Virus record (IMG/VR): IMGVR_UViG_2541047828_000009
Coordinates: 1-43,862 of that record
Length of the DNA stretch: 43,862 nucleotides
Strand: one strand, 5' to 3'
Origin: a virus
Taxonomy: Duplodnaviria; Heunggongvirae; Uroviricota; Caudoviricetes
Shown here: one piece after another, positions 17,389 to 21,539 of the stretch
How positions within the stretch are numbered: position 1 is the first letter of the stretch
Layout: every line of letters starts with the position of its first letter
Notes under the pieces: model-generated
The model's database searches: none
Told to the model about the DNA's origin: nothing
Seen by the model: only the letters and a program-made list of their open reading frames with translations
Translations under genes and position numbers: made by a program

Positions 17389-17443
17389 TTGTCAACTTTA
17401 TGAGCAAACTGATCTTAATTACTGTAACTAGGTGGTCAATGAT

Positions 17444-18082
17444 ATGGCAACGCTTAAGGACCTTTCCAGTCAGTTAAGACAGCTGCAGAAGCAAATACCG
17501 TTTGCGACTGCCCAGGCTATGACTAAAGTGGTTCGCCAGATAGAAGCGGCCCAAAAAACAGCATTTGAGCGGAATCTGGATAATCCAACACCTTTTACAG
17601 TTAAATCGGTTGGGTCAGTTGGTGCCAGGAAAAACAGCCTTCGTGCGAAGGTGTTTGTTCGTGATACTGCTGCTGGTTACCTTGAACCCTTCGAGTTCGG
17701 CGGAGAGCACAAGCTTAATGGTAGTGCTTTGCTTAACCCGAAAGACATAAAGCTTAATAAATACGGCAACCTGCCGCGTAATAAGCTCTCTCAGCTCAAA
17801 GCAAAGGAAAATGTATTCGTAGGTGAGGTGGATGGCGTTAACGCTGTCTGGCAGCGTAAGAAACCGATGAAAGCTAAGAAGCGACGGGCCAAGCGCTCCG
17901 CTAATGGGACGCGAAGACCGAAACGTAAACAGCGTTCTCCAAAGCTTTTGATCCGGTTTGGTGATGCGCTACCTGTGACTCCAGTGCTGGGGTATATGGA
18001 TAGGGCCCGTACCATGGCGAACGCACTGCTACCGTCTGCTTTAAATCAGGCGATAGCAGAAGCCATCAGGACGGCAAAATAA
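17444..18082 (+). CDS. Hypothetical protein with a Lys/Arg-rich tract
   Basis: ATG 17444 with AGGTGG RBS; basic stretch KKPMKAKKRRAKRSANGTRRPKRKQRSPK. Confidence 0.55.
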   Translation: MATLKDLSSQLRQLQKQIPFATAQAMTKVVRQIEAAQKTAFERNLDNPTPFTVKSVGSVGARKNSLRAKVFVRDTAAGYLEPFEFGGEHKLNGSALLNPKDIKLNKYGNLPRNKLSQLKAKENVFVGEVDGVNAVWQRKKPMKAKKRRAKRSANGTRRPKRKQRSPKLLIRFGDALPVTPVLGYMDRARTMANALLPSALNQAIAEAIRTAK

Positions 18083-18092
18083 AAGCAGTAAC

Positions 18093-18596
18093 TTATAAGT
18101 TAATTTCGCAAGCTTTTATGAAGCTGTTTACTGCAGTTGTCGATCCAGAAACATTGGCTGACATGGAATGCTGGTTTCCGCCATCCTTTGTTTGCACACC
18201 AACTAACACTTTGGATTTCGCCCCCTGAAGCTGCTTAAGCACTGTTTTTAGTTGGTCCGCGTCATCCGATTGAATCTGGAGGCTCTGAACATTACGTCTT
18301 GAAAGGGTAGCATCGAGCTTCACTGCGGTATTCCCGTCGACCTTCATTATCAGGTCCATTGGTACCTCTGATAGTGATTCGGTGCTTTTATCCATTTCAA
18401 CGTATGCCGCCGATAGCTTTTCTTTAGTGCAGTCAAACACAATGGCGCCATTGTCGGATGAAACCTCGCCAAGCATCATTGCTTTCTTACCACCAGAGAA
18501 AAGGTCATCTTCAGTATTAGTTACCCACTGGGCATGAGCAATTGGTGATGCCAGCACTGCGGCTACGAAAGTTATTTTGATTATATTGTTACCCAT
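18093..18596 (-). CDS. Secreted/periplasmic moron protein (167 aa) in the bor-equivalent position
   Basis: ATG 18596 with AAGGAGAA RBS; signal peptide MGNNIIKITFVAAVLASPIAHA then QW; antisense to the flanking late genes. Confidence 0.6.
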   Translation of the reverse strand: MGNNIIKITFVAAVLASPIAHAQWVTNTEDDLFSGGKKAMMLGEVSSDNGAIVFDCTKEKLSAAYVEMDKSTESLSEVPMDLIMKVDGNTAVKLDATLSRRNVQSLQIQSDDADQLKTVLKQLQGAKSKVLVGVQTKDGGNQHSMSANVSGSTTAVNSFIKACEINL

Positions 18597-18740
18597 TACA
18601 TTCTCCTTGTATTGAATAGGAATAATCATAGTCGGAGCGAATGGTCGAAGCCATTAAAAAAATGGGTCCTTCCTGAGACTTTTGTAAGGTACGGGCATTG
18701 CGCGCCGCAGTGTTTTCCTAGCTACAAATTTTCAAATTTA

Positions 18741-18889
18741 GGTAACAGGTAACAGTTACGTTTTGTTACGTTTTGAGCTTTGTTCTTGATTGCAAAAATA
18801 TTCCTCTCAGCTGGTTGTTACCCTCGATGTTACCTCTTCTGGTTGGGTAACAGTGTCAGGTAACAGATCAGACTGCAGGTGAGGTAACA
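18741..18889. repeat. GGTAACA(G) repeat array upstream of the terminase small subunit (putative cosB/pac-type binding sites)
   Basis: At least seven direct or inverted copies (ggtaacaggtaacag, gttacg twice, tgttaccc, tgttacct, gggtaacag, aggtaacag, aggtaaca abutting the ATG). Confidence 0.6.
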
Positions 18890-19471
18890 ATGAACCAGTC
18901 AGATTTCGCACGGTTACATGGCGTTAGCCGCAAGACCGTTACGATGTGGAAAAGCCGGGGATGGCTGATCATGTCCGGCGATGATATCGATGTTGCCGCT
19001 TCAAATGCACAACTCGAAAAGTACAGGAAAAGCGTTAACCGACCCGATAAACAGAAAACGTCTGCGCCAGAAAAAAAGAAAGCTGACCGGCTGTTGCCTG
19101 CGCGGGAGCCGCCGGAAGAAAGTAACTCGTCACTGGAGGGGCTTGCGCGGGATTTCCTCCTTGAAAACGGCGCTGAGTTATCGCTGGATGAAGCGCGCCG
19201 GGTAAAGGAAAACTACCTGGCGTTACTGACAAAATTAGAGTTTCAGCAAAAAGATGGCCAACTCATTGAGATGGCTGCCGCCGAGGAGGTTCTTTTCAAC
19301 GCCTTTCGCCAACAGCGTGACGCCTGGCTTAACTGGCCGTCAAGAGTGGCACCATTAATGGCTGCTGATCTGGGCGTGCCGGCGGACAGGATGACAGAGG
19401 TGCTGATTGAACATGTCCACAAACATATCTCAGTCCTCGGAGAACCAGAATTTAACCCAGCAGAAGATTGA
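18890..19471 (+). CDS. Terminase small subunit (Nu1-like)
   Basis: N-terminal HTH NQSDFARLHGVSRKTVTMWKSRGWL comparable to lambda Nu1; directly precedes the large subunit. Confidence 0.75.
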   Translation: MNQSDFARLHGVSRKTVTMWKSRGWLIMSGDDIDVAASNAQLEKYRKSVNRPDKQKTSAPEKKKADRLLPAREPPEESNSSLEGLARDFLLENGAELSLDEARRVKENYLALLTKLEFQQKDGQLIEMAAAEEVLFNAFRQQRDAWLNWPSRVAPLMAADLGVPADRMTEVLIEHVHKHISVLGEPEFNPAED

Positions 19472-21539
19472 ACGCCTTCAACTGAGTGTCCGTAAGGGAT
19501 GGACACCACCACCACGTATCAGCGTCCCTCAATGGGCCGATGACTACCGGAAGCTGGCGAAAGAAGCTGGCAGTACCTCCGGGAACTGGGAAACATCAAC
19601 GGTTGAAATTGCCCGCGGTCCTATGCTGGCCGCGACGGAATCGGGCGTCCACATTATCACCGTGATGTGCTGTACCCAGTTAATGAAAACCGCGCTGCTG
19701 GAAAACCTGTTTGGTTATTTTGCGCACCTCGACCCATGTCCGATTTTGCTCCTGCAGCCGAAGGAAGAAGCCGCCGAGCAGTTTTCCAAAGAACGCATCA
19801 GCCCGCTGGTTAGGGTAACGCCAGTTCTGCGTAACATCATAGGTGACTCAAAGCAGAAGAGTTCAAAAGAAACCATTCTGTATAAAGCTTTCACCGGCGG
19901 ATTTCTGGCGTTGGCCGGCGCAGGTAGTCCAGATAACCTTGCGCGCCGTCCGATCCGTGTTCTGCTGGCAGATGAGGTGGATAAATACCCGATTACCCGC
20001 GAGGGCGATCCCATTGCTCTGGCGGAAGAGCGAACCGCCACATTTGGCCTTAACTGGCTGTCTGTGCGGGCTTGCTCGCCGACGGTCGAAGATGAAAGCC
20101 GGATTGCTGACAGTTACGAAGATTCAGATCAGCGGCGGGCCTCTGTAGTTTGCCCCCATTGCGGGCACCGACAGTTCCTTGATTTCTTCAAACATGTTCA
20201 ATGGCCAAAAGAAGGTGATAAGCACCTGACCAAAGCGGCCATGATCCATTGTGAATGTTGTGGTGCTGGCTGGTCAGAGGGTGAGCGTCTGCGGGCATTA
20301 CAGACAATCCGCTGGCATCAGACCAAACCGTTTGAATGTTGTGGTTCCCGCCATTCACCATTAATGGAATACGACCAGAAATGGCATGAAGGAGACGAGG
20401 GCAGTGTTGATGCCGTCTGGCGCTGGTCAGAGTCGGAACGGCATGCCGTATACCGGGCGATTTGCCCGGACTGCGGGGCCGAGGCGCTGGATAATCACCA
20501 CGCCGGGTACCAGGCGTCAAAACTCTTCAGTCCCTGGCAAAAAGACAAGCCATCGGACATTGCAAAGAAATACCTCGATGCGAAAGGGGATCCGGATAAG
20601 GAACAGGCCTGGTGGAACACCCAGATGGGGTTGCCGCACCGGCCTAACCACGGGAAACAGCTCCCGGTTGATGTCCTGCTGGCGCGCCGTGAAGTCTTCC
20701 CGGCCGTCGTTCCTGATGGCGTGGCATTGTTAACTGCGGGCGTCGATACCCAGGATGACCGATTCGAAATCACGATCACTGGCTGGGGGCGGGACGAGGA
20801 ATCGTGGTCAGTTGCGCATGACGTCATTTATGGCGATCTGGAGACTGAGGAACCCTGGAAGCGCCTCGATGCGTACCTGAAACAGATATGGCGACGCGGC
20901 GACGGGCGAGGGCTGAATATTCTGGCTGCATGTATGGACTCCGGCGGTCACCACACGCAAAAGGTTTATGAGTTCTGCAAAGATCGCCTTGGGCGCCGCG
21001 TCTGGGCTATCAAGGGCGAATCTGCGCAGGGTGGGAAACGCAACCCCGTCTGGCCAACCAAGCGACCGACATCGAAAAGTAAAGCCAGCTTCAGGCCAAT
21101 TATACTTGGCGTGAACTCTGCGAAAGATGTTGTCCGTGGTCGTCTGCATCTTGAACCGCCAGCTTTAGGTACTGCCGGTGCGGGCTATATGCACTTCCCG
21201 GATGATCGTGACCTCGGATATTTCAACCAGCTGCTGGCCGAGCGACTGGTTTATAAAGTGGTGGCCGGTCAGCGATTCAGTGTCTGGGAGCCTATCCCCG
21301 GACGGGCGAACGAAGCACTCGACTGCCTCGTTTACAGCTATGCCGCGTTGTGTGGGCTGAAACATATGGGATTAAAACTCAATGTTCGGGCCGCTAACCT
21401 TCAGGCCGATCCCGATAAGTTCCTGCCGGCGCCAGCCGAGCCAGAAGAAAAAATCAATTACGAATTACCGGGTGCCATCGTGGATGAGGCTATGGCTCCT
21501 GTTAAGCGTAAGAACATTTCTAAACTCCTGCCGCAATAA
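19413..21539 (+). CDS. Terminase large subunit (lambda gpA-like)
   Basis: Block TAGVDTQDDRFEITITGWGRDEESW parallels lambda A GIDSQLDRYEMRVWGWGPGEESW; the track ORF begins at TTG 19407 and ATG 19413 is used here. Confidence 0.9.
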   Translation: MSTNISQSSENQNLTQQKIERLQLSVRKGWTPPPRISVPQWADDYRKLAKEAGSTSGNWETSTVEIARGPMLAATESGVHIITVMCCTQLMKTALLENLFGYFAHLDPCPILLLQPKEEAAEQFSKERISPLVRVTPVLRNIIGDSKQKSSKETILYKAFTGGFLALAGAGSPDNLARRPIRVLLADEVDKYPITREGDPIALAEERTATFGLNWLSVRACSPTVEDESRIADSYEDSDQRRASVVCPHCGHRQFLDFFKHVQWPKEGDKHLTKAAMIHCECCGAGWSEGERLRALQTIRWHQTKPFECCGSRHSPLMEYDQKWHEGDEGSVDAVWRWSESERHAVYRAICPDCGAEALDNHHAGYQASKLFSPWQKDKPSDIAKKYLDAKGDPDKEQAWWNTQMGLPHRPNHGKQLPVDVLLARREVFPAVVPDGVALLTAGVDTQDDRFEITITGWGRDEESWSVAHDVIYGDLETEEPWKRLDAYLKQIWRRGDGRGLNILAACMDSGGHHTQKVYEFCKDRLGRRVWAIKGESAQGGKRNPVWPTKRPTSKSKASFRPIILGVNSAKDVVRGRLHLEPPALGTAGAGYMHFPDDRDLGYFNQLLAERLVYKVVAGQRFSVWEPIPGRANEALDCLVYSYAALCGLKHMGLKLNVRAANLQADPDKFLPAPAEPEEKINYELPGAIVDEAMAPVKRKNISKLLPQ

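What the first reader, a model, noticed from the sequence alone, without database searches (positions are those of the whole stretch)
18741..18892. Array of GGTAACA(G) repeats ending at the terminase small-subunit start codon
At least seven direct and inverted copies are packed into about 150 bp, the last overlapping the ATG. They are most likely small-terminase recognition sites (cosB or pac-like), which would locate the packaging start just upstream. They could also autoregulate terminase translation.
Basis: partly seen in the sequence, partly recalled or inferred. Interest (0 to 1): 0.45.

Follow-up and report, generated by a model that had tools for sequence, protein, structure and literature searches.

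The report
Terminase docking repeats beside cos site
The GGTAACA repeats are real and are almost certainly the docking sites (cosB) where this E. coli prophage's small terminase sits to start DNA packaging from a lambda-type cos cut site 35 bp upstream. It is an ordinary kind of element, but in a lineage where it had not been described.

Summary
Observation confirmed. Seven exact GGTAACA/TGTTACC copies lie at 18741-18889 (10 in the whole window). No 7-mer clusters like this in 200 shuffles.

Interpretation supported by comparison, not experiment. The window has, exactly, the 12-nt cohesive end GCATTGCGCGCC (18695-18706) mapped in the related Serratia phage BZS1. It also has lambda's GGGTCCT motif (cosQ from memory) 24 bp upstream and a gpA-type large terminase downstream. 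The first heptamer pair sits at bp 47-60 from the cut, where lambda's R3 site lies.

Across 96 related loci, five heptamers (GGTAACA, TGTCCCA, TGTTCGC, GGTTTCA, TGTCCGC) partition perfectly with five versions of the small-terminase recognition helix. Prophages with a 98-99.6% identical large terminase carry the other heptamer plus the other TerS N-terminus, swapped as one block (about 18735-19280).

The TerS N-terminal domain models as a winged helix. Its best structural matches are lambda-type TerS DNA-binding domains.

So this is a complex cosB of lambda type, a new member of a known kind. No IHF consensus was found, and autoregulation of translation is unsupported.

Unexpected extra: in short-spacer relatives the same array lies inside terS, encoded as GNK-type repeats.

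The parts
18664..18670 (+). GGGTCCT heptamer, in the position of lambda's cosQ (packaging termination signal)
   Evidence: The same heptamer sits at lambda 48473-48479, 23 bp before the nick. Here it is 24 bp before 18695. It is invariant in BZS1, phiNP and 8 aligned class-A loci, and present in 70 loci that carry the cosN 16-mer. Calling lambda's GGGTCCT 'cosQ' rests on my own knowledge. The literature read here says only that cosQ is a highly conserved 7-bp site.
18695..18706 (.). cosN: predicted 12-nt 5' cohesive end GCATTGCGCGCC (boundaries +/-1 nt)
   Evidence: Identical to the cohesive end of Serratia phage vB_SspM_BZS1, which was determined by PhageTerm plus comparison of prophage and virion end sequences (PMC7556043; record annotation). 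The 16-mer GGGCATTGCGCGCCGC is followed by a TerS and/or gpA homologue in 100 fetched loci.
18707..18740 (+). Conserved spacer between cosN and cosB (GCAGTGTTTTCCTAGCTACAAATTTTCAAATTTA)
   Evidence: Conserved across all heptamer classes and fixed in length, so the first heptamer always starts at bp 45-50. It resembles the lambda sequence at the same position (GGTTTTCGCTATTTATGAAAATTTTCC).
18741..18754 (+). Proximal tandem pair GGTAACAGGTAACA (bp 47-60 from the cohesive-end start), positional equivalent of lambda R3
   Evidence: It is present at this position in every class. Lambda R3 spans bp 50-65, with TerS contacts at bp 55-63 (PMC9026076).
18755..18815 (.). Spacer between the proximal pair and the distal block. 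Contains two degenerate inverted copies (18754-18760, 18764-18770)
   Evidence: The sequence is not conserved among class-A relatives, though it looks A+T-rich by eye in them. No IHF consensus with up to 1 mismatch.
18816..18834 (-). Two inverted copies (TGTTACC at 18816-18822 and 18828-18834, 12-bp period), equivalent in orientation to lambda R2
   Evidence: They are conserved while the flanks diverge. The ++--++++ layout is the most common long-form architecture in classes A and B.
18846..18889 (+). Three direct copies (18846-18852, 18859-18865, 18883-18889), with a lost copy at about 18872-18878. Equivalent to lambda R1. The last copy overlaps the terS Shine-Dalgarno sequence
   Evidence: Typical spacing in relatives is 12-13 bp.
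18890..19471 (+). terS, small terminase subunit (193 aa)
   Evidence: phrog_57 'terminase small subunit', E = 1.6e-32, full length. It lies directly upstream of and overlaps the gpA-type terL. Homologues are annotated terS in phages BZS1 and phiNP. No Pfam or NCBIfam hit.
18890..19030 (+). TerS N-terminal winged-helix DNA-binding domain (aa 1-47). Predicted recognition helix aa 14-22 (18929-18955), sequence RKTVTMWKS
18735..19280 (+). Exchangeable specificity module: the heptamer array plus TerS aa 1 to about 125
   Evidence: Identity to class-B prophages collapses only here. It is 100% up to about 18723 against L005, and at least 90% again from about 19285. TerS aa 123-193 are 69/71 identical between classes A and B, while aa 1-122 are far more diverged (visibly so in the alignment).
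19413..21539 (+). terL, lambda gpA-type large terminase (the ORF can also be read from a TTG at 19407)
   Evidence: PF05876 GpA_ATPase E = 9e-66 and PF20454 GpA_nuclease E = 3e-81. RefSeq annotation.

Best explanation
The region 18664-18889 is a complete lambda-type cos site of an E. coli prophage. It consists of a cosQ-like GGGTCCT, then cosN (12-nt staggered cut at 18695-18706), then cosB.

The GGTAACA heptamers are the R elements of cosB. Each is read by the recognition helix of the winged-helix domain at the N-terminus of the small terminase TerS (18890-19471).

Inferred mechanism:
- TerS bound to the proximal pair, at a fixed distance from cosN, positions the gpA-type large terminase to nick cosN.
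- The inverted pair and the distal direct copies (12-13 bp phasing) recruit more TerS subunits. This builds a bent or wrapped nucleoprotein complex that stays on the left end and docks on the prohead.
- The heptamer sequence together with TerS aa 1 to about 125 sets the packaging specificity.

Shown here: the anatomy, identity of cosN to a mapped relative, positional equivalence to lambda, heptamer/helix co-variation, the module swap, and the fold of the TerS N-terminus.

Inferred, not shown: actual binding, cutting at this site in this prophage, and the geometry of the complex.
For: 1. Clustering is far beyond chance.
2. The exact 12-nt cohesive end of phage BZS1 lies 35 bp upstream (PMC7556043). 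GGGTCCT sits 24 bp before the cut, against 23 bp in lambda.
3. gpA-type TerL, gpW and a lambda-family portal follow.
4. The first heptamer starts at bp 45-50 from the cohesive end in all 71 unique intergenic sequences of five classes. Lambda R3 is at bp 50-65, and its distance to cosN is critical (PMC9026076).
5. The orientation pattern ++ / -- / +++ mirrors lambda's R3 / R2 (inverted) / R1. The terS ATG is at bp 196, against 191 in lambda.
6. Five recognition-helix classes and five heptamers partition perfectly in 96 loci.
7. L053 and L061 have TerL 98-99.6% identical to the window but carry TGTCCCA repeats and the other TerS N-terminus. L005 has an identical left flank, including the same two upstream proteins. 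Divergence is confined to about 18735-19280.
8. The heptamers are invariant while the DNA between them is unalignable.
9. In short-form relatives the same heptamers lie inside terS and are read in different reading frames, so selection acts on the DNA.
10. The TerS N-terminus is a winged helix, closest to lambda-type TerS DNA-binding domains.
Against: - No experiment exists on this prophage. cosN is assigned by identity to a relative, and its ends could be off by 1 nt.
- TerS has no significant sequence similarity to lambda Nu1 and no Pfam or NCBIfam hit.
- Foldseek E-values on the full-length model were not significant. Only aa 1-47 of the model are confident.
- No IHF consensus lies between the proximal and inverted copies, so a lambda-style IHF hairpin is not supported.
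- The 7-bp period of the proximal pair is too short for two winged-helix domains to bind side by side on one face of the DNA. Occupancy is therefore unclear.
- Co-variation counts are inflated by related sequences. The independent events are about five classes, plus a possible sixth heptamer/helix pair in L067, plus the recombinants.
Confidence: 0.85

Rival explanations
1. The repeats, especially the copy abutting the start codon, mainly autoregulate terS. TerS bound there would block translation initiation or transcription of the terminase operon.
For: A copy lies 0-2 nt from the ATG in 18 of 28 unique class-A sequences, about 8 nt away in 27 of 30 class-B sequences, and 3-4 nt away in 5 of 9 class-C sequences. 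In the window it overlaps the Shine-Dalgarno GAGG.
Against: - Some relatives have the last copy 7-24 nt upstream.
- TerS is a DNA-binding winged helix, with no RNA-binding evidence.
- The mRNA fold of 18736-18905 is not better than shuffles (z = -1.44).
- No promoter-like site occurs in 18000-19100, so there is no local promoter to repress.
- This idea does not explain the fixed distance of the first copies from cosN, nor the module swap.
- It is compatible with cosB as a side effect, but not as the primary role.
Confidence: 0.07
2. The heptamers are operators for another DNA-binding protein, either a phage late regulator, a host factor, or one of the conserved upstream gene products, and not for TerS.
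For: Short direct and inverted repeats in an intergenic region are typical of operators. A 216-aa gene (17432-18082) is conserved just upstream of cos in this phage group (PMC7556043).
Against: - The two upstream proteins are the same accessions (WP_001472183.1, WP_001472855.1) in the class-A window and in the class-B prophage L005.
- TerL is 99.6% identical across classes.
- The only coding sequence that changes together with the heptamer is TerS aa 1 to about 125.
Confidence: 0.04
3. The repeats act at the RNA level, as a structured 5' leader or small RNA, or are functionless products of replication slippage.
For: Inverted copies can pair with direct copies. For example, 18828-18841 pairs with 18876-18889 over 14 nt at 86% complementarity, which would sequester the SD.
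Against: - Fold energy is within the shuffle range (17 of 200 shuffles fold as well).
- No Rfam family reaches its threshold.
- The heptamers are exactly conserved across genera while the spacers diverge. They keep a fixed register to cosN and occur in coding DNA in different frames. None of this is expected for slippage debris or for an RNA helix.
Confidence: 0.02

Closest known systems
Phage lambda cos: cosQ, cosN and cosB (R3-I1-R2-R1) with gpNu1/gpA terminase
   Same: - Same order of subsites, with GGGTCCT 23-24 bp before the nick.
- 12-nt 5' cohesive end.
- First TerS site about 50 bp from the nick.
- An inverted middle element followed by direct distal elements.
- terS ATG at bp 196, against 191 in lambda.
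- gpA-type TerL, gpW and a lambda-family portal.
- TerS N-terminal winged helix.

   Different: - The cohesive-end sequence differs (5 of 12 positions match).
- R elements are 7-bp cores present 7-9 times, rather than three 16-bp sites.
- The R3 position holds a tandem pair with a 7-bp period.
- No IHF consensus.
- TerS is not detectably related to Nu1 by sequence.
Lambda versus phage 21 packaging specificity (cosB plus the Nu1/gp1 recognition helix)
   Same: Phages share cosQ, cosN and TerL but differ in R sequence and TerS recognition helix (PMC4669245). Here classes A and B show the same pattern on a 98-99.6% identical TerL.
   Different: At least five classes, and possibly a sixth in L067, are seen in one lineage. 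Specificity here is inferred from co-variation and has not been measured.
Phage N15 'simple' cosB (single R3 plus an inverted rR2 inside gene 1) versus Monarch 'complex' cosB
   Same: - One specificity group contains both simple and complex layouts.
- Short forms have the terS ATG at bp 57-82 (N15: bp 89).
- Short forms have an inverted copy inside terS, at bp 218-224 in BZS1 (N15 rR2: bp 249-260).

   Different: The intragenic part here is a whole array of 3-7 copies, encoded as GNK-type peptide repeats. It is found in four classes. It is strictly alternative to an upstream array: long forms have zero copies in terS.
PICI cos-rpp modules (EcCICFT073 RppA/RppC), which redirect helper TerS to a different cosB
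   Same: Locus L067 is a 15.7-kb element with a D5-type primase. It has the same cosQ and cosN, a different heptamer (TTCACA), and a protein that shares only the TerS DNA-binding domain. This matches the cos-rpp layout (PMC6739421, PMC9026076).
   Different: This concerns a related locus, not the window. There is no sequence match to Rpp, and satellite status is untested.
MerR-like and excisionase winged-helix proteins that coat direct repeats head-to-tail (BldC, Xis)
   Different: Those proteins act in transcription or recombination, not packaging. Filament-type binding by this TerS is speculation.

Membership tests
Lambda-type cos site (cosQ-cosN-cosB) | gpA-family large terminase encoded immediately downstream | tested here: met
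   PF05876 E = 9e-66 and PF20454 E = 3e-81 on 19407-21536.
Lambda-type cos site (cosQ-cosN-cosB) | cosN giving 12-nt 5' cohesive ends | tested here: inconclusive
   The sequence is identical to the 12-nt end mapped in relative BZS1. The ends of this prophage's own virion DNA are not known. Symmetry of the flanks suggests the published end could be shifted by 1 nt.
Lambda-type cos site (cosQ-cosN-cosB) | Conserved 7-bp cosQ about 23 bp upstream of the nick | tested here: met
   GGGTCCT at 18664-18670, 24 bp before 18695. The same heptamer sits 23 bp before the lambda nick. It is conserved in relatives. The assignment of this heptamer as lambda's cosQ is from my own knowledge.
Lambda-type cos site (cosQ-cosN-cosB) | cosB: repeated TerS sites between cosN and terS, first at about bp 50, middle element inverted | tested here: met
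   Copies at bp 47-60 (+,+), 122-140 (-,-) and 152-195 (+,+,+). Lambda values come from PMC9026076.
Lambda-type cos site (cosQ-cosN-cosB) | IHF site (I1) between R3 and R2 | tested here: not met
   No WATCAANNNNTTR match with up to 1 mismatch in 18700-18890. N15 also lacks I1, so this feature is not universal in the family.
Lambda-type cos site (cosQ-cosN-cosB) | TerS physically binds the R elements, and they are required for packaging initiation | not testable with these tools
   Only indirect evidence is available: helix/heptamer co-variation and the module swap.
gpNu1-type small terminase (Pfam Phage_Nu1) | Sequence membership of the Nu1 family | tested here: not met
   No Pfam hit at E <= 0.01. 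BLASTP against lambda Nu1 gives E = 0.16 on an unrelated stretch. It does belong to phrog_57 'terminase small subunit'.
gpNu1-type small terminase (Pfam Phage_Nu1) | N-terminal MerR-like winged helix-turn-helix DNA-binding domain, with a C-terminal part that goes with TerL | tested here: met
pac-type (headful) packaging signal | Headful terminase with terminally redundant, permuted DNA | tested here: not met
   TerL is gpA-type, and the relative has defined 12-nt cohesive ends.

The most novel reading that the evidence does not exclude
The heptamer arrays may be more than a lambda cosB copy. Sites phased at 12-13 bp, up to nine of them, with no IHF site, would be coated by a TerS multimer (ring or head-to-tail filament, as for BldC and Xis). 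This differs from a dimer clamped across an IHF bend.

The array is also a movable unit. It lies either upstream of terS or inside it, where it literally encodes the TerS linker. Together with the helix classes, five or six of them, this would give a readable and engineerable packaging-specificity code. Satellites such as L067 would exploit that code.
Probability: 0.25. Interest if true: 0.65.

Novelty: new member of a known kind. Interest (0 to 1): 0.45.

Why it matters
- It fixes the genome ends and packaging origin of a widespread group of enterobacterial prophages whose small terminase is usually annotated 'hypothetical'.
- It offers natural specificity variants on near-identical large terminases. 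These are ready-made material for testing how TerS reads cosB, a question that is hard to address in lambda because Nu1 binds poorly in vitro.
- Relatives show the binding-site array written into the terS coding sequence. This gives much stronger natural support for functional intragenic R sites than the single rR2 of N15.

Tried and rejected
- **Genome-contig scan.** The scan for the cosN 16-mer returned mostly chance hits in GC-rich genomes. Only L171, L182, L224 and L232 were real.
- **Megablast against phages.** The region found nothing.
- **Family and sequence searches.** Pfam and NCBIfam gave nothing for TerS. BLASTP against lambda Nu1 was not significant. phmmer of full-length TerS against PDB gave nothing useful.
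- **Regulatory and RNA checks, all negative.** IHF consensus search, sigma-70 promoter and terminator scan, Rfam (only a sub-threshold Pistol match at E = 0.93), and RNA fold.
- **GGTAACA at 18587-18593 (- strand), 108 bp left of cosN.** I considered it as a lambda R4-like element and rejected it. It is the start of the upstream gene and lies in sequence 100% identical in the class-B prophage L005.
- **Literature.** A search for the cohesive-end sequence found only the BZS1 paper, which does not mention the repeats. I could not confirm the cosQ sequence from the held literature.

Full report
**1. The observation**

The sequence at 18741-18892 reads aGGTAACAGGTAACAgttacgttttgttacg...ggtTGTTACCctcgaTGTTACCtcttctggttgGGTAACAgtgtcaGGTAACAgatcagactgcaggtgaGGTAACAatg. 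Exact GGTAACA copies:
- + strand: 18741, 18748, 18846, 18859, 18883.
- - strand: 18816, 18828.

These are 7 of only 10 copies in the whole window, where 3.3 are expected (repeat families).

I also ran a test that does not presuppose the motif. Seven copies in 150 bp is the strongest cluster of any 7-mer in the window. In 200 dinucleotide-preserving shuffles the maximum was 3-5.

The last copy ends at 18889 and abuts the ATG at 18890. It overlaps the Shine-Dalgarno GAGG rather than the ATG.

**2. Genomic context**

The window is a prophage 100% identical to one in E. coli 20KM2222. It has lambdoid early genes, a lysis cassette, and then this region. Downstream lie:
- a 193-aa ORF at 18890-19471,
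- a gpA-type large terminase (PF05876 plus PF20454),
- gpW,
- a lambda-family portal,
- a contractile tail.

The 193-aa protein has no Pfam or NCBIfam hit. It matches phrog_57 'terminase small subunit' end to end (E = 1.6e-32). Its phage homologues are annotated terS.

**3. The cut site**

The closest characterised phage is Serratia phage vB_SspM_BZS1. Its record starts with an annotated 12-nt cohesive end, GCATTGCGCGCC, 74 bp before terS. That end came from PhageTerm plus comparison of prophage and virion end sequences (PMC7556043).

The window has the identical 12-mer at 18695-18706, 35 bp before the first heptamer.

Twenty-four bp further upstream is GGGTCCT (18664-18670). Lambda has the same heptamer 23 bp before its nick. 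That position is lambda's cosQ according to my own knowledge. The papers read say only that cosQ is a conserved 7-bp site.

The sequence just right of cosN also resembles lambda's. The whole of 18664-18889 therefore has the layout cosQ, cosN, cosB.

**4. Position and architecture compared with lambda**

| Feature | Window | Lambda |
|---|---|---|
| First TerS sites | direct pair, bp 47-60 | R3, bp 50-65 (TerS contacts 55-63) |
| Middle element | inverted pair, bp 122-140 | R2, inverted |
| Distal element | direct copies, bp 152-195 | R1, direct |
| terS start | bp 196 | bp 191 |

In lambda the cosN-to-R3 distance tolerates almost no change (PMC9026076; PMC4669245).

**5. Comparative test**

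A scan of viral contigs for the cosN 16-mer gave 120 loci. With the loci already held and four real hits from the genome scan, 100 loci had a TerS and/or gpA homologue downstream.

The most repeated 7-mer between cosN and the terS ATG falls into five types, and each goes with one version of the TerS recognition helix:

| Heptamer | TerS recognition helix |
|---|---|
| GGTAACA | S[RK]KT[VI]TxW |
| TGTCCCA | [DN]RKT[IV][GST]RW |
| TGTTCGC | SDTLVRRA |
| GGTTTCA | SHTAV[SA]KW |
| TGTCCGC | DEKQVRRA |

There is essentially no cross-occurrence in 96 loci, which comprise 71 unique intergenic sequences.

In every class the first copy starts at bp 45-50. The most common long architecture is ++--++++. 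Spacings are 7 bp for the first pair and 12-13 bp for the rest.

Within class A, eight lineages from different genera keep cosQ, cosN and the heptamers invariant, while the DNA between them cannot be aligned.

**6. Natural swap experiments**

L053 and L061 have a TerL 98-99.6% identical to the window's, yet carry TGTCCCA repeats and the class-B TerS N-terminus.

L005 (E. coli MLI104K1) is 100% identical to the window through the two upstream genes and cosN. The two upstream proteins have the same accessions in both. Only then does it switch.

Divergence is confined to about 18735-19280. TerS aa 1-122 are far more diverged than aa 123-193, which are 69/71 identical (overall 59%). The only protein segment that changes with the heptamer is therefore the TerS N-terminal part.

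**7.

The AF2 model is confident only for aa 1-47 (pLDDT about 88): two helices, a beta hairpin, and a third helix.

7lxs_A is also the best sequence match in the PDB, though weakly (E = 0.16). Its sequence NKKKLAEIFGCDVRTVTAWQSQG aligns with NQSDFARLHGVSRKTVTMWKSRG.

By that alignment, window residues 18 and 22 correspond to lambda residues 20 and 24. Those are known specificity determinants, and both differ between classes A and B.

**8. What is not supported**

- No IHF consensus lies in the spacer.
- No promoter or terminator consensus.
- No Rfam family.
- The RNA fold is not better than shuffles.

A heptamer near the start codon is frequent but not universal. Nothing points to translational control.

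**9. Unexpected finding in relatives**

Relatives with a short cosN-to-ATG distance (57-82 bp) include the mapped phage BZS1. They have only 0-3 exact copies upstream (usually 2-3). The rest of the array sits inside terS, 140-250 nt after the ATG, in the linker-coding region.

In BZS1 this is TGTTACC at bp 218-224 and GGTAACA at bp 246, 258, 270, 285 and 297, encoding ...TVTRPGKKVAGNKQGNKTGNRSSGNKSGNKN.

The intragenic heptamer is again class-specific in classes A, C, D and E. The same heptamer is read in different frames in different phages (GGT AAC A gives GN[KR]; G GTA ACA gives VT). Selection is therefore on the DNA.

The two arrangements are strictly alternative:
- short forms have 1-7 own-class copies inside terS (median 6 in class A);
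- all 45 unique long-form genes, including the window's, have none.

This parallels N15's single intragenic rR2, but on a much larger scale.

**10. Verdict**

The repeats are the cosB of a lambda-type cos site in a lineage where cosB had not been described. The BZS1 paper reports only the 12-bp cos site.

The system is homologous in layout to lambda's. It differs in:
- the cohesive-end sequence,
- the number and shortness of the R elements,
- the tandem pair at the R3 position,
- the lack of an IHF consensus,
- a TerS outside the Nu1 sequence family.

I rate it a new member of a known kind, of moderate interest. The comparative by-products add some value: five or six specificity classes, upstream versus intragenic arrays, and a possible satellite. 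All functional statements rest on comparison. None has been tested on this prophage.

Noticed in passing
L002 (phage BZS1) 218-303; also L011, L003, L048, L115, L031, L017, L069, L171, L049, L182, L050, L093: In short-form relatives the class-specific heptamer array lies inside terS, in the linker-coding region, encoded as GNK-, ANS- or ET-type peptide repeats. It is read in different frames in different phages. Long forms, including the window, have none inside terS: 0 of 45 long-form genes against 1-7 copies in 32 short-form genes.
   Followed up: partly
L067 1-1100 (IMGVR_UViG_2882471735_000005, a 15.7-kb contig): The cosQ and cosN are the same as in the window, but there is a sixth heptamer (TTCACA/TGTGAA, about 7 copies). 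The following 193-aa protein shares only the TerS winged-helix domain (33% identity over 49 aa), and no terminase follows. The element also encodes a D5-type primase-helicase, a Fic protein and an SLT-domain protein. This layout recalls PICI cos-rpp satellites.
   Followed up: partly
window 18692-18710: If the cohesive end were shifted by 1 nt, to GGCATTGCGCGC at 18694-18705, both nicks would follow a 5'-CG-3'. That is the conserved rule in lambda-like phages (PMC4669245), and the flanks would be more symmetric. The published BZS1 end may therefore be off by one base.
   Followed up: no
window 18093-18629 (- strand) and 17432-18082 (+ strand): Between the lysis genes and cos lie two genes. One is a divergently oriented 178-aa protein of unknown function, possibly secreted (phrog_19473). 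The other is a 216-aa 'minor tail protein'-like gene (phrog_1924), whose position just upstream of cos is conserved in this phage group, as the BZS1 authors also noted. Neither co-varies with the heptamer class.
   Followed up: partly
window 18872-18878: Relatives have a fourth distal direct copy here, with 13-bp phasing. The window reads ACTGCAG instead, so it has 7 copies where relatives with the ++--++++ layout have 8.
   Followed up: yes
window 18890-19471 versus E. coli genomes: Of 5,426 complete E. coli genomes, 59 match this region, but only one (20KM2222) covers at least 80% of the query. The next-best hits cover 63% in two pieces, and the one inspected (L005) carries the TGTCCCA/class-B module. 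The nearest TerS homologues are in Klebsiella, Edwardsiella, Raoultella and Pectobacterium, nearly all annotated 'hypothetical protein'.
   Followed up: partly
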